NCBI GenBank assembly: GCA_015484945.1 | Contig: WFUO01000035.1 | Coordinates: forward strand, 60,096 to 124,095 | Length of the DNA: 64,000 nt | Source of the DNA: Gammaproteobacteria bacterium | GTDB lineage: Bacteria; Pseudomonadota; Gammaproteobacteria; WFUO01 | Reading direction: 5' to 3' | Shown: positions 7,509 to 61,912 of the stretch, in pieces | Layout of the letters: every line of letters starts with the position of its first letter | Numbering within the stretch: the stretch's first letter is position 1 | Notes under the pieces: generated by a model | Seen by the model: only the letters and a program-made list of their open reading frames with translations | Database searches by the model: none | Told to the model about the DNA's origin: nothing | Position numbers and translations under genes: made by a program

Positions 7509-8065
7509 TGCTGAGTGCGATTCTCGTCATCGTCGGGCTATCGGTGGTGTTTGGTGTCATCCTCGGCTATTCGGCGATCCGTTTCCATGTGGACAGCGAC
7601 CCGGTGGTCGATCAGATCGACGCCCTGCTGCCTCAAACCCAATGTGGTCAGTGCGGCTACGCCGGCTGCCGGCCGTACGCGGAGGCCATTGCCAGTGGCG
7701 AGGCCGACATCAACCAGTGTCCGCCCGGCGGCGACACCACGATCCGGGCGCTTGCGGATCTGCTCGGCGTCGATCCGAAACCGCTCAATGCCGAACATGG
7801 CACGACCAAGGACATCAAGACCGTGGCCTGGATCGACGAGACCATCTGCATCGGCTGCACCCTGTGCATACAGGCCTGTCCGGTTGACGCCATCCTCGGC
7901 GCAGCCAAGCAGATGCATACCGTGATCGTGGACGAATGCACCGGATGTGAACTGTGCATCCCGCCCTGCCCGGTGGAGTGCATCTTCATGGTGCCGGTCA
8001 AGGAAACCATCGAGACCTGGCGCTGGCCCAATCCCGACGAGGCCAGCCTGGAGAACGCCTCATGA
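7508..8065 (+). CDS. rnfB: electron transport complex subunit B (ferredoxin)
   Basis: N-terminal [11 protein letters not shown] cluster and two 4Fe-4S Cx2Cx2Cx3CP motifs; overlaps rnfA stop. Confidence 0.92.
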
Positions 8066-9621
8066 GCCTGCTGCATCCCGGCACAGTCGGCCATTTCCAT
8101 GGCGGCCTGAAACTGGAACGCCACAAGCGTGAATCCTGCGATCGCCCCATTGGTACCTGCCCGCTGGCCGACGAGCTCACCCTGCCGTTGCAACAACACA
8201 TCGGCGAACCGGCCGAACCGCTGGTCAGGGTCGGTGACCAGGTGCGCAAGGGGCAGATGATCGCGCGTGCCAGCGACTACGTCAGCGCACCGGTGCACGC
8301 CCCGACCTCGGGCACGGTCACACGTATCGAGGCGCTGATGGTACCCCACCCTTCGGGCCTGTCGGCACCCTGCATCGTCATCGAACCCGATGGCGAGGAC
8401 CGCTGGATAGACGAATTGCCGGTAGTGAATGACTATCGCAGTCTCGATCCCAGTGCGCTGCGCAACCGTATCCGCGAGGCCGGCATCGTCGGTCTTGGCG
8501 GCGCCGGTTTTCCGTCCTACATCAAGCTCAATCCGGGCAGGGCGGGCCAGATAGACACCCTGATACTCAATGCTGCCGAATGTGAACCTTGGATCACCTG
8601 TGACGACCGGCTGATCCGTGAACGCGCCGGACGCATCGTCGCCGGTGCCGAAATCATGATCCACGCCCTGCAGGCGCGCCAGTGCGTGATCGGCATCGAG
8701 GACGAGATGCACGAGGCCATCGCCGCACTGCGCCAGGCTGTGGAAGGCACCGGTATCGAAGTGATACCGGTACCCACCCGTTATCCGGCCGGTGGCGAGA
8801 AACAGCTCATCCAGGTGCTCACCGGACTGGAGGTGCCGGTCAACGGGCTGCCACTGGACATCGGCATTACCTGTCACAATGTCGGCACCGCAGCGGCCAT
8901 CGCCGACGCGGTGCACGAAGGCCGGCCGCTGATCTCGCGTATCGTCACCGTCACCGGCCAGGTTGGTGAACCACGCAACCTCGATACCCTGATCGGCACC
9001 CCGGTACGCACGCTGATCGAACACTGCGGCGGCTATGCCGGCACCCCCGGCCGCCTGATCATGGGTGGACCGATGATGGGCTTCACACTGCGCAACGACA
9101 CGGTGCCGGTCATCAAGACCACCAACTGCCTGCTGGTCATGGATCCTCCCGCCCGCCACGAAACGCCCATGCCCTGCATCCGCTGCGGCGAATGCGCAAC
9201 CGTATGCCCGGCACGGCTGCTGCCGCAGCAGCTTTACTGGTACGCTCATGCCAAGAACTTCGACCGCATCCAGGACTACGACCTGTTCGAATGTATCGAG
9301 TGCGGCTGCTGTGCCCATGTCTGCCCCAGCCACATCCCGCTGGTACAGTACTACCGCTATGCCAAAACCGAGATCTGGAACATGGAACGCGAAAAGGAAC
9401 GCGCCGACCTGGCGCGTGAACGCCATGAATTCCGCCTCGAGCGTCTGGAACGCGAGAAACGTGAGCGCGAGGAGCGCATGCGCAAGAAGAAAGAAGCGCT
9501 GAGCAAAAGCAACAAGGGCAAGGACGACCCCAAAAAGGCCGCCATCGAAGCGGCGCTCAAACGCGTTCGCGAGAAGCAGGCGCGCGCCGCGCAAGGTAGT
9601 GACAAGGAGAACGACGCATGA
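8062..9621 (+). CDS. rnfC: electron transport complex subunit C
   Basis: ATG at 8062 (ATGA overlap with rnfB); NADH/FMN-binding and 2x [4Fe-4S] motifs ([24 protein letters not shown]); KE-rich C-terminal tail typical of RnfC. Confidence 0.92.
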
Positions 9622-16945: not shown

Positions 16946-19900
16946 TTATGCCGCGCCCTCATGCTTGCAAACAAGCGGCTGTGGCCGTCCGATCGCATAA
17001 CCCTGTACATAGTCTATGCCAATCATCCGCAGGCGCTCGAGAACGATATCATTCTCGACGAACTCGGCCACAGTACGCACCCCCATGATGTGACCCACCT
17101 GGTTGATTGCCACCACCATGGCATGATCGACTGGGTCGTCGATGATATCACGGATGAAACTGCCATCTATCTTGAGATAATCCACCTGCAGATTCTTCAG
17201 ATACGAGAAGGAACTCAGGCCGCTGCCAAAATCGTCCAGCGAAAAGCTGCATCCAGTTTCCCGCATCCTGTGAATGAACTCATTGGCACTGGTGAGGTTG
17301 GATACCGCCGCAGTCTCGGTGATCTCGAAACATATCCGCGTGGTGTCGATATCATGAGCATCGATGGATTCTATGACAAAATCACAAAACCCCTGATCTC
17401 CCAGTGACTGCCCGGACAGGTTGATGGTAATACTGAGCCTTTCACCCTGCTTCTGGTACTGCTCGACCTGCCTGAATGCATTACTGATTACCCAGCGATC
17501 TATATCAGGCATCAGATGGTAGCGTTCAGCAGCAGGAATAAAACTTGCCGGCAAAACGATATCACCGTCATCATCGAGCATGCGTAACAGGATCTCGAAA
17601 TGACTGCCATCGGCCTCGGTATTGAGCGGCCTGATCTCCTGATAGTACAGACACAGCTTGTTTTCCTTCAGGCACTGCTTGATACGCTGCACCCATTCAA
17701 GCTCGGTATGATGCCTGGCCAGTTCCGTATCGTCCGGTGAATAACAATGGATACGGTTTCGCCCCAGATCCTTGGCGACATAGCAGGCCGCGTCCGCGGC
17801 GCCGAGAATATCGCTCATAGACCCACTATGCGCATGTATTGGCACCAGACCGATGCTGACGCCGGTATCGAACTGACGATCCTCCCAACTGAAACGGTAT
17901 TCCGAGATCTCTGCGCGTATCTTTTCTGCTATCTTCATCGCGTCATCGAGCGAACAATGCTCCAACAGCAAGCCAAACTCGTCACCACCCAGACGCGCCA
18001 GGGTATCACCCTCCCTGATACTGCCTTGTAGAAGTGTTGCCAGCTGCTGAAGGAGCTGATCGCCCGCCACATGGCCACAACTATCATTGACGATCTTGAA
18101 CTGATCCAGATCCATATAACACAGGGCATGAGGCACATTGTCATTACGCGCACTCTGCAGACATTTCTCCAGTTTGCGTTCGAACTCACGCCGGTTTATC
18201 AGCCCGGTCAATGGGTCGTGATTGGCCTGAAAGCTGAGACGTTGGGCCATGTCCCACATCTCGCTGACATCATGTATGACCATGACCACGCCATCGATAT
18301 CGCCCATGTCTCCTCTGATCGGGGCTGCTGTCAGCTTGACCGCATACTCCCTGCCATCATTGCGCACAGCGATACAATTGTCGCTATAGTTGACCAGCTC
18401 GCCTGTCGTTGAGCATTGTGAAACAGGGTCCGGCATGGGCTCACGCGTTTCCGCATTCATGAAGCACAAGATCTCCTTTACCCTTCTCCCCCTGGCGGTG
18501 TTGTTGTCAATGCCGGCCAGCTGTTCCGCAACCGGATTGATATAGTGGATCCTGAGATAACGGTTTGTGGTAATGACACCATCACCGATAGACTGTAGTG
18601 TGATCAGTGCACGCTCCTTTTGCTTCCTCAGGGCTTCTTCGACGAGCTTGATACTGCTGATGTCTCGCGTGGTTCCCTCTATACCGACTATCTTTCCACT
18701 GTCGTCGTAGCAGGCCTGGGCATTGGTCGATACCCAAATGATACGTCCATCCTTGCGCCGCAGGCGTACCTGGTAGTCAACCACGCTCATGTCGTTCTCT
18801 TCCATGGCCTTGAGAAAACGCTCACGGTCTGCTTGATTGACGTAATAATCCGCCATCCTGCTGCCCAGCATCTCGTCCATTGTATAACCGAGCAATTTTT
18901 CTGCTGATCTCGAGATATGCGTTACAATCCCGTCCATATCCACCCGATAGTAAGTATCCTGCATATTGTTGAGAATACTGGCCAATTCCTTTTGCGATTT
19001 TCGTAACGAGATCTCGGTATTGATCCGTTCGATGGCTTCGTCTTCCAGTTGCTGACGCAACTGTTTTTCGTGACGAATGACACGCATCAGGTAGATGCCG
19101 AATATCAGCAACAACAGCATCAGCACACCAGCTGCGATCAATGGCAACCGGTAGCGTTGCAGCGCCTCATTCAGGGAAAAATACTCTGTTCCAGCATATG
19201 GGCCGACACGAATTTCGCGCATCAAATCATGCACCGGACGATAACTCAACGGCGTATCCCAGCCAAAGCTCATGGCCGCGCTCGCGGCAGGCGAATCGGG
19301 TGGCAAACGCAACAGTTCCACCGCAACCTGACGCGCAAGTTGGTCTGACACATGAGGCAGACGCGCAAAGGGCCACTCGGGGTACAACTGTGTACTCAAC
19401 GCAAACGGAAAGCCTTTGACCTTTCTGAGATTGATGATTTTCAGTACGCCCTGTTTGATCTTACCCTCTGCGATCATGCGTTCGAGTGAATCGGTCCGGA
19501 AGGTGCCTGCATCGACCAGGCCATCACGAACCGCATACGCAACCGCATCCTGGGGAAAGCCGCTGAAACGCAATGCCCTAAAATCCCTGAACGGATCGAT
19601 ACCATGATGCTTGAGTTCCCGCCAGGCCATCTGAAACCCGCCGAACCCATCGCGTTTGACGCCCATGAAGGTTTTGCCCTTCAGATCGGCAAGGGTACGA
19701 ATATCGTCTCGGTCGGCACGCACGAATATCACTGCGCCAAAACGGCTGTATGGCCTTCCGCGGCGACGGTTGCGCAGCGTGGCCAGCGCACTGAGACGGT
19801 AGCGTGCCTCCAGGGTGACGAAATTGCCGGTATTGGTGAGCAGGAAATCGATGTGGCGGTTGGCTACGGCCGGTCCGGTTTCTGCGAGATCAAGGGGTAC

Positions 19901-20095
19901 GATGATGAATCGATGACCTGGTATCCTGCGGCTCAGATAGCGCGCGGTCGGCTCCCACATGCGCAGGGCCATGTCGCCTCCACGATAGGCAAGCACACCG
20001 ATGCGCACGATACGCTGTTCCTGTGCCTGAACATAAAACGGCAGCAGTAACACGGTCAGCAGATAGAGTGACAAACAGCCCGGAATTCTTTTCAT
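16946..20095 (-). CDS. sensor diguanylate cyclase/phosphodiesterase (periplasmic SBP-like domain, TM, PAS, GGDEF, EAL)
   Basis: 1049 aa; signal peptide plus PhnD/SsuA-like binding domain, TM, PAS (DGIVTHISRSAEKLLGYT), intact GGDEF (RLGGDEFG), EAL domain (EILLRM...DDFGSG...KID). Confidence 0.88.
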   Translation of the reverse strand: MKRIPGCLSLYLLTVLLLPFYVQAQEQRIVRIGVLAYRGGDMALRMWEPTARYLSRRIPGHRFIIVPLDLAETGPAVANRHIDFLLTNTGNFVTLEARYRLSALATLRNRRRGRPYSRFGAVIFVRADRDDIRTLADLKGKTFMGVKRDGFGGFQMAWRELKHHGIDPFRDFRALRFSGFPQDAVAYAVRDGLVDAGTFRTDSLERMIAEGKIKQGVLKIINLRKVKGFPFALSTQLYPEWPFARLPHVSDQLARQVAVELLRLPPDSPAASAAMSFGWDTPLSYRPVHDLMREIRVGPYAGTEYFSLNEALQRYRLPLIAAGVLMLLLLIFGIYLMRVIRHEKQLRQQLEDEAIERINTEISLRKSQKELASILNNMQDTYYRVDMDGIVTHISRSAEKLLGYTMDEMLGSRMADYYVNQADRERFLKAMEENDMSVVDYQVRLRRKDGRIIWVSTNAQACYDDSGKIVGIEGTTRDISSIKLVEEALRKQKERALITLQSIGDGVITTNRYLRIHYINPVAEQLAGIDNNTARGRRVKEILCFMNAETREPMPDPVSQCSTTGELVNYSDNCIAVRNDGREYAVKLTAAPIRGDMGDIDGVVMVIHDVSEMWDMAQRLSFQANHDPLTGLINRREFERKLEKCLQSARNDNVPHALCYMDLDQFKIVNDSCGHVAGDQLLQQLATLLQGSIREGDTLARLGGDEFGLLLEHCSLDDAMKIAEKIRAEISEYRFSWEDRQFDTGVSIGLVPIHAHSGSMSDILGAADAACYVAKDLGRNRIHCYSPDDTELARHHTELEWVQRIKQCLKENKLCLYYQEIRPLNTEADGSHFEILLRMLDDDGDIVLPASFIPAAERYHLMPDIDRWVISNAFRQVEQYQKQGERLSITINLSGQSLGDQGFCDFVIESIDAHDIDTTRICFEITETAAVSNLTSANEFIHRMRETGCSFSLDDFGSGLSSFSYLKNLQVDYLKIDGSFIRDIIDDPVDHAMVVAINQVGHIMGVRTVAEFVENDIVLERLRMIGIDYVQGYAIGRPQPLVCKHEGAA

Positions 20096-23367: not shown

Positions 23368-26300
23368 CTACCGCTTGCTGCGGCGCAGGCGCGACAACAA
23401 ACGGCGCGCCATTTCGCCGAACATCTCGGTCTGGGTCGGATGCGGATGGATCGCGTGCGCAACCTGTTCCAGGGTCATCTCGCCCGCCACCATCATCACG
23501 CCCTCACCAATCAGGGTATCGGCATGGTCTGCCAGATAGTGCACGCCGACGATGCGATGGGTCTTCTTGTCGGCGACAATCTTGATCATGCCGTGGGTCT
23601 CGTTGGTGATCATGGCCTTTGCGTCGATGCTCATCGGCATCTTGACCTCAACCGCGTCTATACCCCTGGCCCTGGCCTGTTCGACAGACAGGCCGACGAA
23701 GGCAGCCTCGGGCCGGGTGAAGATCACACCGCTGTCCTTGTCCTGGTCATAGGTCATGTCTTCACCGAGAATGGTTGCGGCGGCCACCCTGCCCTGCTGT
23801 CCGGCGGTATGCGCCAGCATCAGGCCCCCGATGACATCACCGACGGCGAAGATGTGCGGCACGCTGGTGCGGCAACGCGTATCGGCCTTGATCACACCAT
23901 TGTCGATGGCCACGCCCGCCTTGTCGAGCTGCAACGGCTCGAGCACCGGACGCTTGCCGGTAGCCATGAGCAGGTAGTCGCAGGTGAAACTGCGCGCCTT
24001 GCCGTCGGCATCCTCGTACGCGACCTTGACGGCCCCCGGCTCACCCTTGACGGACTTGATCTTGACCGAGGTCTTGATGTCCAGGCGTGGATCATCGTTG
24101 AGAACCGCCGTGAGATGTCTGGCGATCTCGGGTTCCACCTCGGCCAGAATACGATCACGCCCTTCCAGCAGGGTGACCTTGCTGCCGAAGTCCTGGAAGA
24201 TCTGCGCCATCTCCATGCCAATCGCGCCGCCGCCAACGACCCCCAGACGTCTTGGTGGCGCATCGAGCTGCCAGACGGTATCCGAAGTCAGCACGCTGCC
24301 ATTGTCGAGCCCCTCCGCGGCACCCGGAATCGGCGGCACGTACGGCGGCGCGCCAGTGGCGATGACCGCGCAACCGAAACGGATCTGCCGGCCCTCGGGT
24401 TTGCCGCCCGGCTGCTGGCGGCGGTGCGGGTCCTTGCTGTTGCCGCTGGTATCGATGAACAGCGTGTGTTGATCGACGAAGGATGCAAACCCCTGGATGA
24501 CCTCGATCCTGACGCCCTTGTCTGTCTTGAGCGCCATCTCGCCGCGTGTTTCTAGCACATGCCGGCGGGTCTTTTCGAGCTTGTCCCAATCCAGTTTCGC
24601 GCGCGTGGTGCCGGTAACACCCAGGTGCTCGTCATGGGCGCGGTCCCGGATCCGGTCGGCCGCCGCGCGCCAGGCCTTGGACGGGATGCAGCCACGCCAC
24701 AGGCATTCCCCCCCGGGAAACGGCGCGTCGTTGATCATGGCCACCTTGACGCCATGTTCGGCCAGATCCCGGGCGCAGTCCTCGCCACCAGGTCCGCCGC
24801 CGATGACGACCACGTCATAGTCCCAGTCGCCTTCGGGAATCGCCGGGCCGGTCGGGCCCATCCAGCTTTCGGGCTGCTCGATCAGACCCTTCAGGGTATT
24901 CAGATACATGGCCACTTCGGCCCCGTTGACGACCCGGTGATCGGCGGTAATCGTCATTGGCATGCCCTGTTCACCGGCCGTTGCCAGCGCCAGGATGGCG
25001 GCGATGCCGGGCGTGACGATAGCATCGAACTGACTCACGCCCAGCATGCCCATGTTCGAAATCATGAACGTCGGGTTGGCGTACTCCTCGGGCTTGAGGC
25101 GACGGCTGCGCGCACGCTCAACCAGGTCTTTCCAGTCGGCGCCCAGTTCCTCGAGACTGCGGCGATCGCAGGCGCGCAACACAGGCACCACCAGACCGCC
25201 GCCTTCTGCAGCCACCGCCATGCCGATATCGACCTGGCTGCGCTCGACCAGCCGGTCGGTGGGCTGATAGCACCAGTTCATGCTCGGATGTTTCTCCATC
25301 GCCAGCGCACAGGCCTTGGCAATCGCCACGGTAACCGATGTCCCCTTGGCTTTGGCTGCCTTGATCAGTGCCGCCGGACTGGCGTGCACGGTGACATGGA
25401 AGGTCGGTATCGTGATCGATGCCGACATCGAGTGGCTGACGGCCTTCTCCATCGCGTTCATCGGCCTGCCGTCGCCGGCCACCTCGGGTTCGGCGAACAC
25501 CGTGGTGGCGGCGGCGCTGCCGACGGGCTGGGCATTGAGCACGTCGGCCGCGGTAATCACACTGCCCGGGCCGGTACCCTGCACCTGGTTCAGATCCACC
25601 TGTTGCTGTCCGGCCAGCTTGCGCGCATACGGCGTGGCATACCGGGTGGCGGGACGGGGCGCCGGGGCAGCGGCGGTGCGGGACGGCACGCGTGCCACGG
25701 AATCGTCGCTTGCCGGCGTGGCCGCGGATGGCGCAGGTGTCTGCGCGCTGTCGGCGGACGGTGCCGCGGCTTCGACCCGCTGCTTCTCGTCCACGACCTG
25801 ATCAGCGGACTCAACCAGCCAGGCCATGACACCACCCACGGGCACCACGCTGTCAACCTCGACCATCGGACCGGACAGATAACCTTCGCGGAACACCTCG
25901 ACATCCATGATGGCCTTGTCGGTCTCGACCTGGGCGACGATGTCGCCCCGGCTGATCCTGTCGCCGGGGGCCTTCTCCCAGCTAACGACGATGCCCTCGG
26001 TCATGGTGTCGGAGAGCTGCGGCATCTTGATCGCGTGCACGGCGCCCTCCGGCTCGGCCAGGTCATTGCCTCCACCAGCCGCAGCGGGAGCCGGATCAGG
26101 TTCCGGTGCGGTTTCCGCCGCCGGATCCTCGTCCACCGGCGTTGCCGGCGCGGCGGCAGGCGCTCCGTCGTGATGCACCTCGTCGGCACTGGCGACGATA
26201 TAGGCGATCGGCTCTCCAACCGGTACGGTGCTATCCACCGGCGCCAGCGGCCCCGACAGATAGCCCTCACGGAATACCTCGACATCCATGATGGCCTTGT

Positions 26301-26430
26301 CGGTCTCGACCGTGGCGACGATGTCGCCGCGCTCGAGCCTGTCGCCGACATTCTTCTCCCAGCTCACGATGACACCTTCGGTCATGGTGTCGGAGAGCTG
26401 GGGCATTTTGATGACATAAGGATCTGCCAT
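23368..26430 (-). CDS. fused dihydrolipoamide acyltransferase (E2: 2 lipoyl domains, PSBD, catalytic) and dihydrolipoyl dehydrogenase (E3)
   Basis: 1020 aa; two lipoyl motifs (ETDKAIMDVEV x2), E3-binding segment, E2 catalytic DHRVVNGAE, then E3 FAD motif DYDVVVIGGGPGG, redox CLWRGCIPSK, NAD motif, C-terminal HAHPTQTE. Confidence 0.85.
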   Translation of the reverse strand: MADPYVIKMPQLSDTMTEGVIVSWEKNVGDRLERGDIVATVETDKAIMDVEVFREGYLSGPLAPVDSTVPVGEPIAYIVASADEVHHDGAPAAAPATPVDEDPAAETAPEPDPAPAAAGGGNDLAEPEGAVHAIKMPQLSDTMTEGIVVSWEKAPGDRISRGDIVAQVETDKAIMDVEVFREGYLSGPMVEVDSVVPVGGVMAWLVESADQVVDEKQRVEAAAPSADSAQTPAPSAATPASDDSVARVPSRTAAAPAPRPATRYATPYARKLAGQQQVDLNQVQGTGPGSVITAADVLNAQPVGSAAATTVFAEPEVAGDGRPMNAMEKAVSHSMSASITIPTFHVTVHASPAALIKAAKAKGTSVTVAIAKACALAMEKHPSMNWCYQPTDRLVERSQVDIGMAVAAEGGGLVVPVLRACDRRSLEELGADWKDLVERARSRRLKPEEYANPTFMISNMGMLGVSQFDAIVTPGIAAILALATAGEQGMPMTITADHRVVNGAEVAMYLNTLKGLIEQPESWMGPTGPAIPEGDWDYDVVVIGGGPGGEDCARDLAEHGVKVAMINDAPFPGGECLWRGCIPSKAWRAAADRIRDRAHDEHLGVTGTTRAKLDWDKLEKTRRHVLETRGEMALKTDKGVRIEVIQGFASFVDQHTLFIDTSGNSKDPHRRQQPGGKPEGRQIRFGCAVIATGAPPYVPPIPGAAEGLDNGSVLTSDTVWQLDAPPRRLGVVGGGAIGMEMAQIFQDFGSKVTLLEGRDRILAEVEPEIARHLTAVLNDDPRLDIKTSVKIKSVKGEPGAVKVAYEDADGKARSFTCDYLLMATGKRPVLEPLQLDKAGVAIDNGVIKADTRCRTSVPHIFAVGDVIGGLMLAHTAGQQGRVAAATILGEDMTYDQDKDSGVIFTRPEAAFVGLSVEQARARGIDAVEVKMPMSIDAKAMITNETHGMIKIVADKKTHRIVGVHYLADHADTLIGEGVMMVAGEMTLEQVAHAIHPHPTQTEMFGEMARRLLSRLRRSKR

Positions 26431-45625: not shown

Positions 45626-46012
45626 ATGCTCGAATGCAACACAATCAAAGAGGAGCGGGAGCTGGATGCCCGCGTGGCCGAGGCCGTGTTCGGCCATGAA
45701 ATCGAATGGGATGGGTCGAATCCGGTCATCGCGGGAAAGGACAAGCGCGCAGGCAACCCGGTCCCGCATTACTGCACCAATATCGGCGCCTCCTTCATGG
45801 TGGCGCTGGAGTTGCGCCGTCAGGGACATGTGGTCGATATCCATCTCGACAGCAGCGGCATCAGTCTGCGGGTCTGCGACGCACAGGGCAACGAACTGAT
45901 CGAGCACCGCAATATCATCAGCCAGTTCGCCAACCACATGTGTCACGCAGCCCTGGTAGCGGTTGGTGCGGAACGCAGACTTGGTGGAGACCGGCGCAAG
46001 GCCCGCTATTGA
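45626..46012 (+). CDS. hypothetical protein, phage ABA-sandwich-domain-like
   Basis: 128 aa; pattern LDARVAEAVFG...PHYCTNIGASFMVALELRRQG...HMCHAALVA resembles standalone phage ABA sandwich domain proteins (from memory). Confidence 0.4.
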   Translation: MLECNTIKEERELDARVAEAVFGHEIEWDGSNPVIAGKDKRAGNPVPHYCTNIGASFMVALELRRQGHVVDIHLDSSGISLRVCDAQGNELIEHRNIISQFANHMCHAALVAVGAERRLGGDRRKARY

Positions 46013-46626
46013 CCCGGCACCGGCGCCGGGCCACGTAGCCAGGCATGGCGCCACGGACCCGCACCCAGCGCCGTCAGCCGCTCGAGCAGGATATTGCCCG
46101 GAACAGCCTCGTGTGGATAGACCTGCCAGATCTCGACGAACAGGCGGCCGAAGGCCAGCGTCCGCCGCCAGCCCAGCGTCAATGGATCCACCTCGCTGTC
46201 GCAGTTCCGGCAAGGCCACAAGGCAGGATACACCCACGACTGTGCCAGCCATTCGGTCAGGCCATGCAGCGGCTCGCTGCAATGCGGACAGCCCGGCAAT
46301 CGGGTATTGTCCCCCGTCTGGACGATGACATCCGGACATTCCCGCACGACAACATGGGTGACCCGTGAGACATCGATACGCCCGCCGGCATCGGCCGCGA
46401 GTTCGATCGCGGGTGAACAACCCAAAAACACGATGTGATTGAGAAACGCCTCCCCGGCCAGAAAGCGGGCTGGCGAACCGGCATCAAAGCAGGCGCCGAC
46501 CAGCCCGATCTCCTGCAACAGCCCAGTCAGCACTGACGCCGAGAGAGAACCCGCCGGCGTGGCGGGAAACAGGATCAGGCGCGGAATATCATGCATCCGT
46601 GCATGATACGCAAAAGCGTGACAAAA
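46006..46626 (-). CDS. hypothetical Cys-rich protein
   Basis: ~206 aa from internal Met (track ORF to 47025 overlaps the fklB start region); contains CPHC...CRNC zinc-ribbon-like pairs; start uncertain. Confidence 0.35.
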   Translation of the reverse strand, partial: FCHAFAYHARMHDIPRLILFPATPAGSLSASVLTGLLQEIGLVGACFDAGSPARFLAGEAFLNHIVFLGCSPAIELAADAGGRIDVSRVTHVVVRECPDVIVQTGDNTRLPGCPHCSEPLHGLTEWLAQSWVYPALWPCRNCDSEVDPLTLGWRRTLAFGRLFVEIWQVYPHEAVPGNILLERLTALGAGPWRHAWLRGPAPVPGQ

Positions 46627-47527: not shown

Positions 47528-49963
47528 GTGAAACTGACCGCCCCGCACCGTTTCAAGATTCTCATCCTGGGTATCGCCCTGGTAATGCTGGCACTGAGCT
47601 ATCGTCCTTCCGGACAATGGCTGGACGACATCATGTACGATTTTGCCATTGGCCTGATGCCAAAGGGGTCAATGGCACACAACAAACTCGTCATCATCGC
47701 CATCACACCGCACGACGAACGTCGTTTCGGCCCCTGGCCCTGGCCACGTCAGCGGGTTGCGCGCATGATCGATGTGCTGGGCAAACATCGGGTGCAGCGT
47801 ATCGGCCTGTTACTGGATCTCGACACACCACAGACACCGGCGATGCTGCCGCGCCTGCGTGAAGAGCTGCGCGCCATCCTGCCCGATGCAGAACTGGTGC
47901 AACGCCTGACCCGGCTGATCGACAGTGATGCCGCGATGACCGATGCCATCAGCGGGCATCCCGAAGTCTATATCGCCATGCGATGGCAATCGGCTTCCAA
48001 TACCCCCCGTATCGACGAGCGCCTGGTGCGGCTCGCGATCGGCAGTGTGCCACCGACGGATGATCTGCTGTCGATTCTGGGACGCCATCCAGTCGAGGAC
48101 AATGCCCGACTGCGCCTCCCCCTGCCCGCCTTCATCCAGGCTGCCCGCGCAACAGGCGTCAGCGAGTGGCCACGGCCGGGTCAGTCTGCGCGCAGCATCC
48201 GCCTGGCCTATAGGATCGACCGTTACCTGCTGCCATCCTTCGCACTGCTGATGGCCAGGGGCAGGCGCCCGGACAACATCCATTTCCTGCGCGAGCTCAG
48301 ACCGCACAACTATCGCATTCGCCCGCAACCCGCCGGCGTTACCGTTCAGCAGCGGCCCTTCTACCGCTACACTGCCAGCGAACTCCTGCAAGGCAAGATC
48401 CGCACAAGCCTGTTGCGAGGCAGTATCGTCATCATCGGCACCGAACTGCCGCAGCGTGACAATTGGTGGCTTGCGCCAGGCGGCACCCATGCCACACCCC
48501 TGTTCGTTGAAGCGATGGCCACGGCCACCGTGCTCAACAACAACCGGATACATTTGCCGGCCTGGTTCCATCCTGCCCAACGCGGGCTGCTGTTACTGCT
48601 TGCCGTGTACCTGATACTGATACCCGCGCGACTGCATGGCCGCACCATGCTCATCATCAATGGCCTGCTCGGTATCGGCATGCTCAATGCGTCGGTCATC
48701 GTTCTGCTGGCACAGAAAACCTGGCTGCCGCTCGCGTTGCCTGCCTTCTATCTGCTGGGCATGCAGGTGCTGATCAGCTGGCGCCACCGTATCCGGCGCG
48801 CCCTCGAAGAGCTCGCACACGAAGCCGGGCATGTACGTTACCAACTGGCCATCAACCTGCAATCCCAGGGACAACTGGACATGGCGTTCGACCAACTGCG
48901 TCAGGCACCGGCCGACGCAGACAGCCTGGCGGCCATGTACCAATTGGGTCTGGATTTCGAACGCCGCAGGCAGTACAGCAAGGCGCTCGAGGCCTACCAT
49001 CACATCTTCAAACACGACAGCCACTGGCGTGATACGGGTGAACGCATACAACGCCTGAAAAAACTCTCCGCCCCGGCCAGCACTGTGGCAGGAACCACTC
49101 ACGCGGCCACGATCGTGGTCGATGACCCGGCCATCGAAACCCCGCGTATCGGCCGTTTCGACATTCAGCACGAGCTCGGACGCGGCGCCATGGGCATGGT
49201 GTATCTTGCCATCGACCCGGAAATCGAGCGCCAGGTCGCAATCAAAACCCTGGCGCTGACGCACGAATTTGAAGGCAAGGCCCTGGAAGATGCGCGTGAA
49301 CGTTTCCGGCGTGAGGCCGCCGCCGCTGGCCGGCTGGAACACCCTAATATCGTCGGCGTGCATGATATCGGCGAGGAACACGATATCGCCTATATCGCCA
49401 TGGACTATGCCCCCGGCAAGAGCCTGGACAACTATACCGATCCCGACCGTCTGCTGCCGGTAGAGGAGGTACTGGAAATAGGCATTCAGGTTGCTGATGC
49501 ACTTGACTACGCACACCGTAACAAGGTCGTGCACCGCGACATCAAGCCTGCCAACCTGATCTACGATCACAGCGATCACCGTATCCGGATCACTGATTTC
49601 GGTGTGGCCTCCATGGTCGATGACTCGCGCACCCGTACCGGCACCGTGCTGGGCAGTCCCTCATACATGTCACCGGAACAGGTCAGGGGACAGAAACTGG
49701 ATGGCCGCACCGACCTCTACTCGCTTGGTGTCACGCTCTACCAGTTACTGACCGGCAGACTGCCCTTCACCGGCGACTCGCTCGCCAACCTGATGCACCG
49801 GATCATCAATGACAGGCACAAGGGCATTGGCACGATCAGAAAGGGGCTACCGGGCTGCGCCAGCCGTATCGTCAACAAGGCCCTGCAGAAAGACCGTGAC
49901 AAACGCTTCCAGACCGGCGCAGAAATGAAGGAAGCGCTGCAACGCTGCCTGAAAAAACTGTAG
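47528..49963 (+). CDS. CHASE2 sensor domain-containing Ser/Thr protein kinase (with TPR-like linker)
   Basis: 811 aa; N-terminal TM, extracytoplasmic CHASE2, three TM helices, then Hanks kinase (GRGAMGMVY, AIKTL, HRDIKPANL, DFGVA, SPSYMSPE). Confidence 0.85.
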   Translation: MKLTAPHRFKILILGIALVMLALSYRPSGQWLDDIMYDFAIGLMPKGSMAHNKLVIIAITPHDERRFGPWPWPRQRVARMIDVLGKHRVQRIGLLLDLDTPQTPAMLPRLREELRAILPDAELVQRLTRLIDSDAAMTDAISGHPEVYIAMRWQSASNTPRIDERLVRLAIGSVPPTDDLLSILGRHPVEDNARLRLPLPAFIQAARATGVSEWPRPGQSARSIRLAYRIDRYLLPSFALLMARGRRPDNIHFLRELRPHNYRIRPQPAGVTVQQRPFYRYTASELLQGKIRTSLLRGSIVIIGTELPQRDNWWLAPGGTHATPLFVEAMATATVLNNNRIHLPAWFHPAQRGLLLLLAVYLILIPARLHGRTMLIINGLLGIGMLNASVIVLLAQKTWLPLALPAFYLLGMQVLISWRHRIRRALEELAHEAGHVRYQLAINLQSQGQLDMAFDQLRQAPADADSLAAMYQLGLDFERRRQYSKALEAYHHIFKHDSHWRDTGERIQRLKKLSAPASTVAGTTHAATIVVDDPAIETPRIGRFDIQHELGRGAMGMVYLAIDPEIERQVAIKTLALTHEFEGKALEDARERFRREAAAAGRLEHPNIVGVHDIGEEHDIAYIAMDYAPGKSLDNYTDPDRLLPVEEVLEIGIQVADALDYAHRNKVVHRDIKPANLIYDHSDHRIRITDFGVASMVDDSRTRTGTVLGSPSYMSPEQVRGQKLDGRTDLYSLGVTLYQLLTGRLPFTGDSLANLMHRIINDRHKGIGTIRKGLPGCASRIVNKALQKDRDKRFQTGAEMKEALQRCLKKL

Positions 49964-50071: not shown

Positions 50072-50440
50072 TCAGCCACCCTGTTCCGGATCGTCGGGCA
50101 GGAAGATACGCGTACTGTCGTACGGTTGGGTCTGTTCATCGAAATAGCGCAGGCTCAGACTGCCGATCTGGATCAGATCATCGTGCTTGAGGCGGTGACG
50201 ATCGATCCGGCGGCCATTGATACGCGTACCATTGGTGCTGTCCAGATCCTCGATGACGGCCTCTATCTGTCCTTCCAGGTAGGGGCTGGGTCGAACATGG
50301 ATCACGGCATGTTCGCCGCTCACAGTGCCATCGTCCACGTGCAGGGTATTTCCCGGATTGCGGCCGACAGTGAAATCGCCCACGTTCAGGGGATATTCCC
50401 TGACGACGATATCTTCCTGAATATGAAACAACTTGGGCAT
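50072..50440 (-). CDS. FHA domain-containing protein
   Basis: ~122 aa; FHA signature FTVGR...VSGEHAVI...EDLDSTNGTRINGRRI. Confidence 0.75.
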   Translation of the reverse strand: MPKLFHIQEDIVVREYPLNVGDFTVGRNPGNTLHVDDGTVSGEHAVIHVRPSPYLEGQIEAVIEDLDSTNGTRINGRRIDRHRLKHDDLIQIGSLSLRYFDEQTQPYDSTRIFLPDDPEQGG

Positions 50441-50546: not shown

Positions 50547-53009
50547 CTAGATCGCCTGTCTGGTCACATCCACGATATCACCGACGGCAATCACCTGTTC
50601 GAACATCTGCCGCACCCGCGTGGCATGGTGAGGTGAACGGTTGTGCAACCTTTCAAGCGCGGTATTCACTTCGACGGATTCCGGCGCCACAGATCTGCCG
50701 GCGATCAGCTTGACCACACAGTACTCATGCCGCAGTGCCTCGTCGATGAAACGCTTTCTGTCAGACTCCGAGTCGAAATCGTCGCTGCTTGCCACGAAGA
50801 TATCGAAACGCGCCCTTCCCGGGCACTGCTTGCGGAACATATACAGCAACAGACTGGCGGTATCGTTCCCCCTGCGCAACTGGCTGGTGAGTGACAGCAA
50901 CCGTGATGGCAGACTCATGGCGCTGAAATCATGATAGCCGGGTTCGATCTCGAAAAACGCGGACAGGGCGTTCCCGGATCGTGGAAGGGCAACAAACACA
51001 TCCCGCTCGCCATCGTCTCCACGGGTGACGAAAAACGGTATGGTAGCAGTATTGTCGGCGACATAGGTCTGGTAGATTCGCGCCCTTGCCGCGTCGATGG
51101 TATCCATCATCTCGAGTTTCATCTTTTCGCGGTTTTGATTGATGAGCATACGGAAGAAGGCACTGTAGTCGTCACTCGCCGTGGACCCCAATCGGTACAG
51201 TCCCATCCTTGGCTGCTCGCCGGCATGAATATTCTTTATCTCGTATCTCATGTTCTTGAGCTTTATGCGCGACTGCACCTTCTTTTGCAAGGTTGGGAAT
51301 GAAACCAGCACGCGTTCTCCCGCCTTCAGCGATTCAGGCAGGTGATCGAAGCTGTTGATGTCCAGGCAAAGTCCGCGCGTTGAGATATCCATGGACTCGG
51401 CATGCAGTATCTGGCCATTGTAATCAAGCTCTACCCGTACCCGCACCATGTACCTGTCTTCCACCCGGCTTTCGACATGATTCATGCTGACCGTACAGGC
51501 CTCGATATCGCCACAATTCGGGCTGTCGGCCTTTGCCAGCCCATCACCCTCACGGATCAGACCACCCTCGGCCGCTGCGATATTGTCGAAATCATAACCT
51601 GCGAGGATATCGGTAACATCGGCCATGCTGCCGACCGCAAGCACCGAATCGAGCCGCTGCACGAGTGCGCTGGCGGCTTCGCGTGACTTGTTCTTCAGCC
51701 TGCTGGTCTTGAAATCCAGCTTGGCGGCATCGAGCCTGCCGGGCGGTCTGGCCGAAAGACGGAATATCCGTGTATTTTTCTTGTGAACATGTAATCCCGC
51801 CAGTGCCAGCCATTCGGCATCGCTTTTCATGTCACAATCACACACAGTGGCCGGACGTCCATCGTCTTCATAGATCATCATCAACGGACTGGCGCGCCCT
51901 TCCAATTCCTTGCGCTGCAACAATGTCTCGATGATCGCCGATGAAAACAGGTTGCGCACGCCATGACCACCCCCACTGCCGGAGAAAACCGTCAGCAGAT
52001 CCTGGTTGCCCTGATTGACGGGAATCTCCACATGATTGGGCCTGCCATGCTCATCACCATAAACAATGAATGGTATGACACGGGTTGCCGCACTGTAGTA
52101 GATCTCGGCCAGCAGGGATTCACTGGTCTCGATCTCGTCCTCGTGATCCAGTCTGCGTCTGCCGCGCGAATGTTTAAGCTCGCTTTCCATGAGCTTGCCA
52201 ATGAAGCTCTCGACACGCACGATAGCGGGATCGGTACACATCATGCGCACCCGGTAATCATTCTTGACCCGCTCCATACCCAGGATCCGGTACTGAACAT
52301 TGACCAGGTTGGCGCCCTTCTCCTCGTTGAAATCGGTGAACGTGACCAGCACGGTCATATCGGCAGCCAGGTCCAGTGGATGGCGTGAATAGACCTGCAG
52401 GCCACGCCGGGAGATGTCATAGGTCTTGAGCGGCAGCACCATGTCGTCGGCCATGATCTGCACCCGGGTGGTGTATTGCAGACGCTCGTCACGGCGCTTG
52501 CGGAAAAAACCCAGTGATATGACCTCCGGCCTCTTGCCGCCTTGCAAATAGACGGAAAATGGTTCGCTCTCGTCCTGTTGCTCGCGCATCTCGTCGTCGA
52601 AACGATACAGTTCATCACTCTGTGAGAGCGCCTGGCGTCGGGCCTCCTCGATTGCGCGATTGGTATGACTGGCGTTCATGATGGTCTCGAACAGACCAAC
52701 CGTATAGACACCGCCGTTCTCTTTCAGCCCGCGAGAGAAGATGTCATAGGTGATATCATCCATCCAGAACACCTGGTTACGGAATGAATAACTCTTGCAC
52801 TCGTAGGGCACCTTGCCGCGCATATCGATGGCGATCATGCACTCGCGATTGCGACGCAATTCATCCATGCGTTTGATGAAGTCATAGGAAAACGATCCCA
52901 CACGCACTTTTTCGACCACCAGCTCCTTCTCACTGGCATCGGCCGACTTGCGCATGTAATGCTTCAGCTCCGTCAATACCTCATCGTCATGAATATCGTC
53001 TCCGGTCAT
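50547..53009 (-). CDS. large twin PilZ-domain protein (putative c-di-GMP receptor)
   Basis: 820 aa; two RxxxR...D-I-S-x-R-G PilZ signatures (RRDER...YDISRRGLQV and RVEDR...MDISTRGLCL); rest without recognisable domains; 80 nt upstream of the FHA gene on the same strand. Confidence 0.65.
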   Translation of the reverse strand: MTGDDIHDDEVLTELKHYMRKSADASEKELVVEKVRVGSFSYDFIKRMDELRRNRECMIAIDMRGKVPYECKSYSFRNQVFWMDDITYDIFSRGLKENGGVYTVGLFETIMNASHTNRAIEEARRQALSQSDELYRFDDEMREQQDESEPFSVYLQGGKRPEVISLGFFRKRRDERLQYTTRVQIMADDMVLPLKTYDISRRGLQVYSRHPLDLAADMTVLVTFTDFNEEKGANLVNVQYRILGMERVKNDYRVRMMCTDPAIVRVESFIGKLMESELKHSRGRRRLDHEDEIETSESLLAEIYYSAATRVIPFIVYGDEHGRPNHVEIPVNQGNQDLLTVFSGSGGGHGVRNLFSSAIIETLLQRKELEGRASPLMMIYEDDGRPATVCDCDMKSDAEWLALAGLHVHKKNTRIFRLSARPPGRLDAAKLDFKTSRLKNKSREAASALVQRLDSVLAVGSMADVTDILAGYDFDNIAAAEGGLIREGDGLAKADSPNCGDIEACTVSMNHVESRVEDRYMVRVRVELDYNGQILHAESMDISTRGLCLDINSFDHLPESLKAGERVLVSFPTLQKKVQSRIKLKNMRYEIKNIHAGEQPRMGLYRLGSTASDDYSAFFRMLINQNREKMKLEMMDTIDAARARIYQTYVADNTATIPFFVTRGDDGERDVFVALPRSGNALSAFFEIEPGYHDFSAMSLPSRLLSLTSQLRRGNDTASLLLYMFRKQCPGRARFDIFVASSDDFDSESDRKRFIDEALRHEYCVVKLIAGRSVAPESVEVNTALERLHNRSPHHATRVRQMFEQVIAVGDIVDVTRQAI

Positions 53010-53319: not shown

Positions 53320-53712
53320 TCAGGCGGTCTGTTCCCACGCAAACGAACAATCCAGCTGGGCGCGTACCATCATCAGACCACGCAGCCCCTTGCTGACGAT
53401 GACTGCGGTCGGGCTCATGCCGTCGAAACGCTTGTGTGGGCTCAGCATCCATTGTGAGGCCATGCGGTAGTTGCGCGGGAAGGTGGTACGCAGGGCGTCG
53501 GCGATACCGACGATGTGCTCGAGACGCTCCATCACCTCATCGGTCTCGGGCAGTGGTGTGTTGTCACGATACTTGCGTATCGCCCGGGTGCGGGTGCCGG
53601 CAGGCAGTCCCAGCACGCCGATCTGGTCGGAATCGCTGATCCCCCATTCATCGAGCAGGCCGATGACCGCGCGGCTCAGGGCGATACGTGCCTCCAGATC
53701 CGTTTCCTGCAT
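53320..53712 (-). CDS. DUF2384 (Xre/MbcA/ParS-type) antitoxin-like protein
   Basis: 130 aa; C-terminal W-x-x-P-x-x-F-x-G-x-SP...G...V...L pattern of the RES-toxin-binding antitoxin domain. Confidence 0.6.
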   Translation of the reverse strand: MQETDLEARIALSRAVIGLLDEWGISDSDQIGVLGLPAGTRTRAIRKYRDNTPLPETDEVMERLEHIVGIADALRTTFPRNYRMASQWMLSPHKRFDGMSPTAVIVSKGLRGLMMVRAQLDCSFAWEQTA

Positions 53713-61336: not shown

Positions 61337-61672
61337 ATGGAAATCAAGGACTACGAACACGTTTACGTCAAGAACTCACCGATCCACGGCAAGGGGCTGT
61401 ATGCCGCCGAACCCATCGAGGCCGGCAGCTTTATCGGCACCTACCATGGCGATGAAACCGACGAGGACGGCACCTATGTCCTGTGGCTGTTCGAGGACGG
61501 CAATCAGACCGGGCGCGACGGCAAGAACGAACTGCGCTATCTCAATCACAGCCACGAACCCAACGCCGAGTTCGACGGCTACGATCTCTACGCCCTGCGC
61601 GACATCGCCCCGGACGAGGAGATCACCATCTGCTACGACCCCGAAAACCCCACCGCCTGGGAAGACATGTAG
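61337..61672 (+). CDS. SET domain-containing protein (putative protein lysine methyltransferase)
   Basis: ~111 aa; NHSHEPN (SET NHSCxPN-like) and post-SET-like ITICYD; start at internal Met (track ORF from 61304). Confidence 0.7.
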   Translation: MEIKDYEHVYVKNSPIHGKGLYAAEPIEAGSFIGTYHGDETDEDGTYVLWLFEDGNQTGRDGKNELRYLNHSHEPNAEFDGYDLYALRDIAPDEEITICYDPENPTAWEDM

Positions 61673-61912
61673 GCGCAATCGGCAATATTCCTCAAGTATT
61701 CTGCGGGAGTGCCGTTTACCCACGTAGATCGCACCAGAATGGAAGCGGGCGAAGTGGAAACACGTTGCCAGGCAGCTACTAGCGTACAACACGACGCCGA
61801 TCACCCTGGCCGCCATCCCTACCCGCCCGTTACCTGCTGTTGCCCTGTCCATACCCGGTAAAACACCGGATGGGCAGAACGGTTGTCAACCACCTGAACC
61901 GGTTGGGGATAT

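What the first reader, a model, noticed from the sequence alone, without database searches (positions are those of the whole stretch)
50547..53009. 820-aa twin-PilZ protein of otherwise unknown architecture, co-oriented with an FHA gene and facing a CHASE2 Ser/Thr kinase
Two complete PilZ c-di-GMP-binding signatures (RxxxR ~20 aa before D-I-S-x-R-G) lie at roughly residues 170-270 and 480-590. The remaining ~600 residues have no recognisable motif. The gene is 80 nt upstream of an FHA (phospho-Thr-binding) gene. The pair converges on a sensor STK, suggesting a node integrating c-di-GMP and Ser/Thr phosphorylation.
Basis: partly seen in the sequence, partly recalled or inferred. Interest (0 to 1): 0.6.

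Follow-up and report, generated by a model that had tools for sequence, protein, structure and literature searches.

The report
PlzC-family twin-PilZ c-di-GMP receptor
The 820-residue gene is a distant but full-length relative of PlzC, a two-site cyclic-di-GMP receptor recently characterised in Vibrio cholerae, so its architecture is a known family, and its proposed link to the neighbouring FHA and kinase genes rests only on gene order in one bacterial lineage.

Summary
ORF 50547-53009(-) encodes 820 aa with two canonical PilZ domains: R172xxxR176...D198ISRRG and R515xxxR519...D541ISTRG. A stand-alone FHA gene follows it, and a CHASE2-TPR Ser/Thr kinase gene converges on the pair.

The architecture is not unknown. 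The protein is collinear over residues 41-820 with V. cholerae PlzC (VC2344): BLASTP E 3e-27, hhalign probability 100%. PlzC's two PilZ domains each bind c-di-GMP at about 0.15 uM, and PlzC inhibits the CheY phosphatase CheX (PNAS 2026).

An exhaustive HMM search finds 530 cluster representatives, 275 at E<=1e-30. Those listed are nearly all 750-890 aa and keep both motif pairs.

I resolve the layout as a conserved N-terminal domain plus a duplicated module of PilZ and a ~190-aa alpha/beta domain (X1 vs X2, hhalign E 4e-33). Neither extra domain matches Pfam or PDB.

The PilZ+FHA+kinase trio recurs only in the one 64%-identical relative, where the FHA gene is inverted. FHA alone stays nearby in a 33%-identical sister clade with inherited synteny. 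Other clades place the gene between parE and parC, beside radA, or beside rnhB, without FHA or kinase.

Verdict: new member of a known kind. The phosphorylation link is unproven.

The parts
50547..53009 (-). PlzC-family gene, 820 aa
   Evidence: ORF. It is collinear with V. cholerae PlzC (P0278): BLASTP E 3e-27 over residues 41-820, hhalign probability 100%, E 6e-40.
52662..52904 (-). Conserved N-terminal domain (residues ~36-116). It includes helix 40-52, which aligns with the PlzC helix predicted to contact CheX.
   Evidence: This is the most conserved part of the family. F44, E49 (D in the window protein), R52, D62, R64, C71, D84, T103 and E108 are >=85% conserved in 136 representatives. 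PlzC L39/K42/M43/N46 align with F44/R47/M48/L51. No Pfam or PDB sequence match. It is unrelated to PilZ or X by hhalign. The AF2 model is poor here.
52530..52661 (-). Variable linker (residues ~117-160)
   Evidence: Column identity is 0.12-0.15 and pLDDT is below 50.
52224..52517 (-). PilZ domain 1 (residues ~165-262; R172xxxR176, D198xSxxG203)
   Evidence: Pfam PF07238 stretch 171-260. The motif residues are 97-99% conserved family-wide, D198 82%. They align with PlzC R145/R149.
51594..52163 (-). X1: ~190-aa alpha/beta domain following PilZ1 (residues ~283-472)
   Evidence: Homologous to X2 by hhalign, probability 99.9%, E 4e-33. pLDDT is about 80-90 for most of the domain.
51180..51488 (-). 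PilZ domain 2 (residues ~508-610; R515xxxR519, D541xSxxG546)
   Evidence: Second Pfam PilZ stretch. The motifs are 96-100% conserved. They align with PlzC R470/R474.
50550..51128 (-). X2: second copy of the alpha/beta domain (residues ~628-820)
   Evidence: The AF2 model of this domain has pLDDT 89.5 and pTM 0.81. The best Foldseek hit in PDB is E 0.1 with TM <=0.2, so there is no significant match. No PDB sequence match.
50072..50440 (-). Stand-alone FHA-domain gene (122 aa from the conserved ATG)
   Evidence: PF00498, E 1.5e-17. The G-R, S-x-x-H and N-G phosphothreonine-binding signatures are present in the translation. Orthologues at 33-39% identity lie next to the PlzC-like gene in the sister clade.
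47528..49963 (+). CHASE2-TPR-Ser/Thr kinase gene, convergent with the FHA gene
   Evidence: Pfam CHASE2 E 2.5e-21 and Pkinase E 1.8e-52. The VAIK, HRDIKPxN and DFG motifs are present in the translation. A kinase neighbour is shared only with the P0002 contig.
53320..53712 (-). Xre/MbcA/ParS-type antitoxin-like gene upstream (130 aa)
   Evidence: Pfam Xre-like-HTH and Xre_MbcA_ParS_C. Orthologues at 52-57% identity lie next to the PlzC-like gene in the sister clade.

Best explanation
The gene encodes a cytoplasmic c-di-GMP receptor/adaptor of the PlzC family. Shown here: it has a conserved ~80-residue N-terminal domain, a variable linker, and two tandem copies of a module made of a canonical PilZ barrel plus a ~190-residue alpha/beta domain ('X'). 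It is collinear with V. cholerae PlzC. Known from the literature for PlzC: each PilZ domain binds c-di-GMP independently (Kd about 0.13-0.16 uM). The protein inhibits the CheY-3 phosphatase CheX without needing c-di-GMP. An N-terminal helix is predicted to make that contact. Its biofilm role needs c-di-GMP binding. Inferred for this protein: both sites bind c-di-GMP. Each RxxxR arm sits in the segment that links a PilZ barrel to the preceding domain (N-terminal domain to PilZ1, X1 to PilZ2). Ligand binding would therefore fix the inter-domain geometry and change which partners the N-terminal and X domains can engage. The partner in this organism is unknown. It could be a CheX-type phosphatase, as in Vibrio. 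The FHA and CHASE2-kinase genes most likely form a phosphothreonine signalling pair of their own that sits in the same conserved chromosomal block. A direct link to the PilZ protein is possible but not shown.
For: Two PilZ domains. Motifs invariant in the 11 nearest relatives. Motifs present in nearly all of about 150 listed family representatives and 96-100% conserved in 136 full-length ones. P0278 from V. cholerae carries exactly the residues named for PlzC in PMC12799141 (L39, K42, M43, N46, R145, R149, R470, R474). Window protein versus P0278: BLASTP E 3e-27 over residues 41-820, hhalign probability 100%, E 6e-40, 734 columns. Internal duplication: BLASTP E 5e-9; profile-profile X1/X2 E 4e-33 and PilZ1/PilZ2 E 3.5e-31. 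Foldseek of the full model hits only PilZ structures, including BcsA, MapZ, MotI, Alg44, PlzD, MrkH and YcgR. The N-terminal domain is the most conserved segment family-wide, as expected for a partner-binding surface.
Against: Identity to PlzC is only 21%, so this may be a paralogous subfamily with another partner. The family has paralogues, for example two tandem copies in Planctobacterium. Of the four PlzC residues predicted to touch CheX, only M43 is identical here, K42 becomes R, and L39 and N46 differ. The Vibrio gene context (radA / plzC / serB) is not shared. Whether this genome has cheX or flagella cannot be seen from 64 kb. No binding or activity was measured.
Confidence: 0.85

Rival explanations
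1. One reading: the twin-PilZ protein, the FHA protein and the CHASE2 kinase form one signalling node. The kinase phosphorylates the PilZ protein or a partner on threonine. The FHA protein docks on that phosphothreonine. In this way an extracytoplasmic signal is combined with the c-di-GMP level.
For: An FHA gene lies within one or two genes of the PlzC-like gene in the window, in the 64%-identical relative, and in every sister-clade locus with enough flank: about 15 loci, several nearly identical. A kinase is adjacent in the window and in the P0002 contig. The FHA and kinase both keep their catalytic or binding signatures. No terminator-like site lies between the PilZ and FHA genes.
Against: The operon structure is not conserved. 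The FHA gene is co-oriented with the PilZ gene in the window, with the kinase in P0002, and is on the opposite strand upstream (back-to-back with it or with an intervening cNMP-HDOD gene) in the sister clade. There is no kinase within 7-10 kb in the sister clade. No FHA or kinase was found in any locus examined from the parE/parC clade (about 20 loci), the radA clade (Vibrio, Idiomarina, Planctobacterium) or the rnhB context. The loci with FHA share a larger inherited block (VWA, ygiQ, Xre, p196, FKBP; YgiQ 66-71% identical), so they amount to about one evolutionary observation. No threonine is conserved only in the FHA-linked clade; T103 and T466 are conserved family-wide.
Confidence: 0.2
2. 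The family acts on chromosome or DNA transactions rather than motility. The protein would couple c-di-GMP to topoisomerase IV, RadA or replication proteins.
For: The gene lies between parE and parC in every locus examined (about 20, some duplicates) from Thiogranum, Thiohalobacter and unnamed gammaproteobacterial MAGs and metagenome contigs. It is divergent from radA in Vibrio, Idiomarina and Planctobacterium. It sits between rnhB and mltC/dnaE in another clade.
Against: These are housekeeping neighbours that differ between clades, and no single DNA-related partner recurs. The parE/parC loci come from closely related genomes (ParE 86-97% identical). The window has no such gene within 64 kb. 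The experimental data for PlzC point to CheX and biofilm (PMC12799141).
Confidence: 0.07
3. The PilZ signatures are degenerate or non-functional, and the protein is a c-di-GMP-independent scaffold.
For: [quoted passage not shown]
Against: Both RxxxR and D/NxSxxG pairs are intact here and 96-100% conserved across the family. Such purifying selection is hard to explain without ligand binding. Both PlzC sites bind at about 0.15 uM.
Confidence: 0.03

Closest known systems
Vibrio cholerae PlzC (VC2344), 779 aa; PMC12799141
   Same: It is collinear over almost the whole length. Both have two canonical PilZ domains at equivalent positions, R145/R149 with R172/R176 and R470/R474 with R515/R519. Both have a homologous N-terminal domain with an aligned helix, and the same duplicated PilZ+X module.
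   Different: Identity is only 21%. The linker after the N-terminal domain is about 20 residues longer. Three of the four predicted CheX-contact residues differ. The gene context differs: Vibrio has radA/serB, while the window has Xre / FHA / kinase. The partner and phenotype are unknown here.
YcgR / PlzD / MotI-type PilZ proteins (PilZN-PilZ)
   Same: They have a canonical c-di-GMP-binding PilZ barrel. The RxxxR arm lies in an inter-domain linker, so ligand binding resets the domain arrangement. Foldseek hits: 5y6f, 2rde, 5vx6.
   Different: There is no YcgR-N/PilZN domain. There are two ligand sites instead of one. The protein is four times larger and has different accessory domains.
MrkH-type tandem PilZ proteins
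   Same: Two PilZ-fold domains in one chain.
   Different: In MrkH-type proteins the two barrels are adjacent and typically only one is canonical (10.1101/2020.02.11.943704). Here both are canonical and are separated by a ~190-residue domain and linkers, with the two RxxxR motifs 343 residues apart.
Bdellovibrio DgcB (FHA-GGDEF), a known link between phosphothreonine and c-di-GMP signalling (PMC6733907, title and abstract listed; domain description from my own knowledge)
   Same: It would be a precedent for Ser/Thr-phosphorylation input into c-di-GMP signalling.
   Different: In DgcB the FHA domain is fused to the cyclase, so the link is on the synthesis side. Here FHA is a separate gene next to a receptor, and no interaction is shown.

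Membership tests
PlzC family (V. cholerae VC2344-like twin-PilZ proteins) | Two PilZ domains, each with RxxxR and (D/N)xSxxG | tested here: met
   Pfam PilZ with two stretches. The motifs sit at 172-176/198-203 and 515-519/541-546 and are conserved in relatives.
PlzC family (V. cholerae VC2344-like twin-PilZ proteins) | Full-length collinear homology to PlzC itself | tested here: met
   P0278 was identified as PlzC by the eight residues named in PMC12799141. BLASTP E 3e-27 for residues 41-820 versus 36-773. hhalign probability 100%, E 6e-40. The Vibrio orthologue P0159 was recovered by the family profile at E 1.8e-59.
PlzC family (V. cholerae VC2344-like twin-PilZ proteins) | Conserved N-terminal domain carrying the helix predicted to bind CheX | tested here: inconclusive
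   The domain and helix align and are conserved family-wide. For the contact residues, M43 is kept, K42 becomes R, L39 becomes F and N46 becomes L.
PlzC family (V. cholerae VC2344-like twin-PilZ proteins) | Sub-micromolar c-di-GMP binding at both sites | not testable with these tools
   Needs BLI, ITC or DRaCALA. Only motif conservation is available.
PlzC family (V. cholerae VC2344-like twin-PilZ proteins) | Inhibition of a CheX phosphatase, and presence of cheX in the genome | not testable with these tools
   Only 64 kb of the genome is available. The genes I annotated in the window, which is not all of them, include no che or flagellar genes.
PlzC family (V. cholerae VC2344-like twin-PilZ proteins) | Orthologous gene position (radA / plzC / serB as in Vibrio) | tested here: not met
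   The window context is ygiQ-rlmL-Xre-plzC-like-FHA / kinase-FKBP, while Vibrio has radA and serB. Position is not a defining feature of the family but bears on strict orthology.
PilZ domain (Pfam PF07238) | Score above the Pfam gathering threshold, and a PilZ beta-barrel fold | tested here: met
   51.6 bits against a cut-off of 22.5. Foldseek probability 1.00 to solved PilZ domains, for example 4rt1 (TMt 0.73) and 8u0i (TMt 0.74).
YcgR-like (PilZN + PilZ) | N-terminal YcgR/PilZN domain | tested here: not met
   No PilZN/YcgR family hit at E<=1. The N-terminal domain has no Pfam match.
FHA / Hanks-kinase signalling pair (neighbouring genes) | FHA phosphothreonine-binding residues and kinase catalytic motifs | tested here: met
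   FHA PF00498 E 1.5e-17 with GR, SxxH and NG motifs. Pkinase E 1.8e-52 with VAIK, HRD and DFG motifs.
FHA / Hanks-kinase signalling pair (neighbouring genes) | Conserved co-occurrence of all three genes with the PilZ gene in related genomes | tested here: not met
   The trio occurs only in the window and the P0002 contig. FHA without a kinase occurs in the sister clade. Neither occurs elsewhere.

The most novel reading that the evidence does not exclude
In this uncultured gammaproteobacterial lineage a PlzC-type two-site c-di-GMP receptor has been wired to Ser/Thr phosphorylation. A dedicated stand-alone FHA protein, kept beside the gene across relatives down to 33% identity, docks on a phosphothreonine of the receptor or of its partner. 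In the window's sub-lineage a CHASE2 sensor kinase supplies that mark. This would be the first PilZ-receptor/FHA coupling. Separately, the N-terminal and 'X' domains of the PlzC family may be folds with no solved relative.
Probability: 0.15. Interest if true: 0.6.

Novelty: new member of a known kind. Interest (0 to 1): 0.3.

Why it matters
The result places an unannotated 'PilZ domain-containing protein' in the PlzC family, which now has experimental data. It shows that the family is large: 530 cluster representatives, in every member whose organism I could see a gammaproteobacterium (Vibrio, Idiomarina, Planctobacterium, Aliagarivorans, Thiogranum, Thiohalobacter and uncultured lineages). 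It also has a fixed plan, a conserved N-terminal domain plus a duplicated PilZ+X module. The parts of the PlzC paper and of the PilZ survey that I read describe only the PilZ domains, but I could not read the main PilZ-domain review. This gives PlzC researchers family-wide invariant residues to mutate, such as F44, R52, D62, R64, C71, D84, T103 and E108 in window numbering. It also flags two domains with no Pfam model and no PDB match. For the scan itself, the finding is largely explained. The c-di-GMP/phosphothreonine integration idea remains a lineage-specific hypothesis, not a discovery.

Tried and rejected
1. The word-indexed protein search returned only 11 homologues, which suggested a very rare family. 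The exhaustive HMM search showed this was a sensitivity artefact.
2. I asked whether the N-terminal domain is a third, degenerate PilZ, because 'IDMRG' resembles DxSxxG. hhalign against both PilZ profiles gives probability <=0.2%, so I rejected this.
4. The N-terminal domain gave no hit against Pfam or PDB sequences, and its AF2 model was poor with 11 sequences.
5. I checked for a regulatory RNA or c-di-GMP riboswitch in the 310-nt leader and around the genes. Rfam found nothing at the gathering threshold or at E<=1.
6. I scanned for a promoter or terminator between the PilZ and FHA genes. Nothing lies in the gap, which is uninformative.
7. The parE/parC link seen in other clades is absent from the window.
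8. I considered the Xre gene as part of a toxin-antitoxin pair. No RES-type toxin is nearby, and the conserved 191/196-aa partner has no Pfam family. I did not pursue this further.
9. Two further nearest representatives (P0013, P0014) sit on ~3-kb contigs and gave no context.
10. The Pratt 2007 and Galperin & Chou 2020 papers are not held in the library.
Full report
**Observation.** The minus-strand ORF 50547-53009 starts with ATG and encodes 820 aa. Pfam finds PilZ (PF07238) at 51.6 bits, E 1.3e-13, with two matched stretches and nothing else at E<=1. NCBIfam gives only a weak match of the second PilZ to the PilZ part of cellulose synthase. The translation shows R172-x3-R176 followed 22 residues later by D198-I-S-R-R-G, and R515-x3-R519 followed 22 residues later by D541-I-S-T-R-G. 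The next gene on the same strand is a stand-alone FHA domain (PF00498, E 1.5e-17). Comparison with orthologues puts its start at the ATG at 50440 (MPKL...), giving a 106-nt gap. The convergent gene 47528-49963(+) is a CHASE2-TPR-Hanks kinase with intact VAIK/HRD/DFG motifs.

**Source and surroundings.** The window is part of a metagenome scaffold (ENA ERZ23495147, REYS20-1 scaffold_42). It has about 60% G+C and carries ordinary chromosomal genes: metG, argG, asnB, ygiQ, rlmL and an ABC-F ATPase. Rfam finds nothing in the window.

**How big is the family?** The word-indexed search found only 11 relatives. An exhaustive HMM search with their alignment found 530 cluster representatives at E<=1e-3 and 275 at E<=1e-30. 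Among the best 150 listed, about 136 are 740-900 aa and most match end to end. A motif scan shows both RxxxR...[DN]xSxxG pairs in almost all of them. Named members are all 'PilZ domain-containing protein' from Gammaproteobacteria. The genera are Idiomarina, Planctobacterium, Aliagarivorans and Vibrio, plus MAGs of Thiogranum and Thiohalobacter and unnamed lineages.

**Identification as PlzC family.**
- One representative, P0159 (Vibrio diabolicus/alginolyticus, 782 aa), has its two RxxxR motifs at 146 and 471. It lies between radA and a serB-like gene.
- Searching with it recovered the V. cholerae protein P0278 (779 aa, 768 member sequences).
- P0278 has L39, K42, M43, N46, R145, R149, R470 and R474. 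These are exactly the residues that Park et al. (PNAS 2026, PMC12799141) name in PlzC.
- The window protein aligns with P0278 from residue 41 to 820 (36-773 in PlzC) at 21% identity, BLASTP E 3e-27.
- The profile of the window's clade aligns with P0278 over 734 columns, hhalign probability 100%, E 6e-40.
- R172/R176 align with R145/R149, and R515/R519 with R470/R474.

The paper reports three things about PlzC. Each PilZ domain binds c-di-GMP with a Kd of 0.13-0.16 uM. PlzC inhibits the CheY-3 phosphatase CheX independently of c-di-GMP, with an N-terminal helix predicted to make the contact. Its role in biofilm maturation requires c-di-GMP binding.

**Anatomy.**
- The two halves of the protein are homologous: residues ~160-470 against ~500-820, BLASTP E 5e-9.
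- With family profiles, PilZ1 against PilZ2 gives E 3.5e-31. The ~190-residue regions after each PilZ (X1, 283-472; X2, 628-820) give probability 99.9%, E 4e-33.
- The plan is therefore an N-terminal domain (~36-116), a variable linker (~117-160), PilZ1-X1, a linker, and PilZ2-X2.
- AlphaFold2 models both PilZ+X modules with reasonable confidence (pLDDT about 80-90 over most of the two PilZ+X modules), but not the N-terminal domain.
- X2 modelled alone, with 16 X1/X2 sequences, reaches pLDDT 89.5 and pTM 0.81 as a mixed alpha/beta domain.
- Foldseek against the PDB finds no significant match for X. For the whole model it finds only PilZ structures.
- Neither X nor the N-terminal domain matches Pfam or PDB sequences.
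- The N-terminal domain is unrelated to PilZ or X.
- In a 136-sequence family alignment the PilZ motif residues are 96-100% conserved. The N-terminal domain is the most conserved segment. F44, E49 (D in the window protein), R52, D62, R64, C71, D84, T103 and E108 are >=85% conserved. Its helix 40-52 aligns with the PlzC helix, with L39/K42/M43/N46 matching F44/R47/M48/L51.

**Gene neighbourhoods.**

| Clade | Gene order around the PlzC-like gene | FHA | Kinase |
|---|---|---|---|
| Window | ygiQ - rlmL - Xre-like - PlzC-like - FHA, then convergent CHASE2 kinase - FKBP | adjacent, same strand as PilZ gene | adjacent |
| 64%-identical relative (P0002, 5-kb contig) | Xre - PlzC-like, then convergent FHA and kinase | adjacent, on the kinase's strand | adjacent |
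| 33%-identity sister clade, ~15 loci (several near-identical) | VWA - ygiQ - FHA (opposite strand) - [cNMP-HDOD] - PlzC-like - Xre - 191-aa protein - FKBP | one or two genes away | none within 7-10 kb |
| Thiogranum/Thiohalobacter-type, ~20 loci | parE - PlzC-like - parC | none | none |
| Vibrio, Idiomarina, Planctobacterium | divergent from radA | none | none |
| P0012 lineage | follows rnhB | none | none |

YgiQ is 66-71% identical between the window and the sister clade. VWA, FKBP, Xre and the 191/196-aa protein are also shared, so this is one inherited block with rearrangements. The FHA gene alone persists within one lineage.

**Mechanism.** Shown: homology to PlzC, two intact ligand-binding signatures under strong conservation, a duplicated PilZ+X module, and a highly conserved N-terminal domain. 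Inferred: both sites bind c-di-GMP. Each RxxxR arm lies in the segment joining a PilZ barrel to the preceding domain, as in YcgR/PlzD-type proteins. Ligand binding would therefore fix the inter-domain geometry and gate partner binding by the N-terminal and X domains. The partner here is unknown, and a CheX-type phosphatase is the only experimentally supported candidate in the family. The FHA/kinase pair is best read as a neighbouring phosphothreonine module. I give a direct link to the PilZ protein about 0.2.

**Novelty and verdict.** The feature is real and correctly described, but the protein belongs to a known, recently characterised family. What my analysis adds is the family's size, its duplicated module, the conserved unannotated domains, and the lineage-restricted FHA adjacency. 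Interest 0.3, new member of a known kind.

Noticed in passing
L009-L022 and L042-L050 (for example L013:8010-14854): In the Thiogranum/Thiohalobacter-type genomes the PlzC-like gene sits exactly between parE and parC (topoisomerase IV), all co-oriented with ~80-100-nt gaps. A REC-PAS-GGDEF-EAL gene lies ~5 kb downstream. This holds in every locus examined, about 20 in all, some of them duplicates.
   Followed up: partly
window 53320-53712 (-); window 46006-46596 (-); L004:10553-11536: An Xre/MbcA/ParS-type antitoxin-like gene is kept next to the PlzC-like gene at 52-57% identity, much higher than the PlzC-like protein itself (33%). In the sister clade a Cys-rich 191-aa protein of no known family follows it after a 3-nt gap. 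In the window that protein's homologue (196 aa, 27% identity) lies four genes away. No RES toxin is present.
   Followed up: partly
window 23368-26430 (-): A 1020-aa ORF fuses a complete 2-oxoacid dehydrogenase E2 (two lipoyl domains, an E3-binding domain and the catalytic domain) to a complete dihydrolipoamide dehydrogenase E3 (Pyr_redox_2 plus its dimerisation domain). This is an unusual single-chain E2-E3.
   Followed up: no
window 16946-20095 (-): A 1049-aa protein combines a periplasmic phosphonate-binding-like domain, PAS domains, GGDEF and EAL. It is a c-di-GMP turnover enzyme 32 kb from the PlzC-like gene.
   Followed up: no
L024:8001-13002 (Planctobacterium marinum AP027272.1): Two tandem PlzC-family paralogues (820 and 836 aa) lie divergent from radA, so the family can duplicate within a genome.
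   Followed up: no
L002/L004/L005:6418-7770; L023:8885-9913: A cyclic-nucleotide-binding gene lies immediately upstream of the PlzC-like gene in two separate clades: cNMP-HDOD in the sister clade, and cNMP x2 plus rhodanese in L023. A second HDOD-HD gene lies a few kb further upstream in the sister clade.
   Followed up: no
window 7657-9594 (-): A 645-aa ORF with no Pfam family at E<=1e-5.
   Followed up: no
window 61427-61795 (+): A small bacterial SET-domain protein (122 aa, PF00856 in the ENA gene call) lies beside a 629-aa VWA protein. That VWA protein is conserved at 33-43% identity in the sister clade's syntenic block.
   Followed up: no
window 50072-50440 versus the P0002 contig (JGI 3300042731): The FHA gene lies on opposite strands in two relatives whose PlzC-like proteins are 64% identical. 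It is co-oriented with the PilZ gene in the window and with the kinase in the relative.
   Followed up: partly
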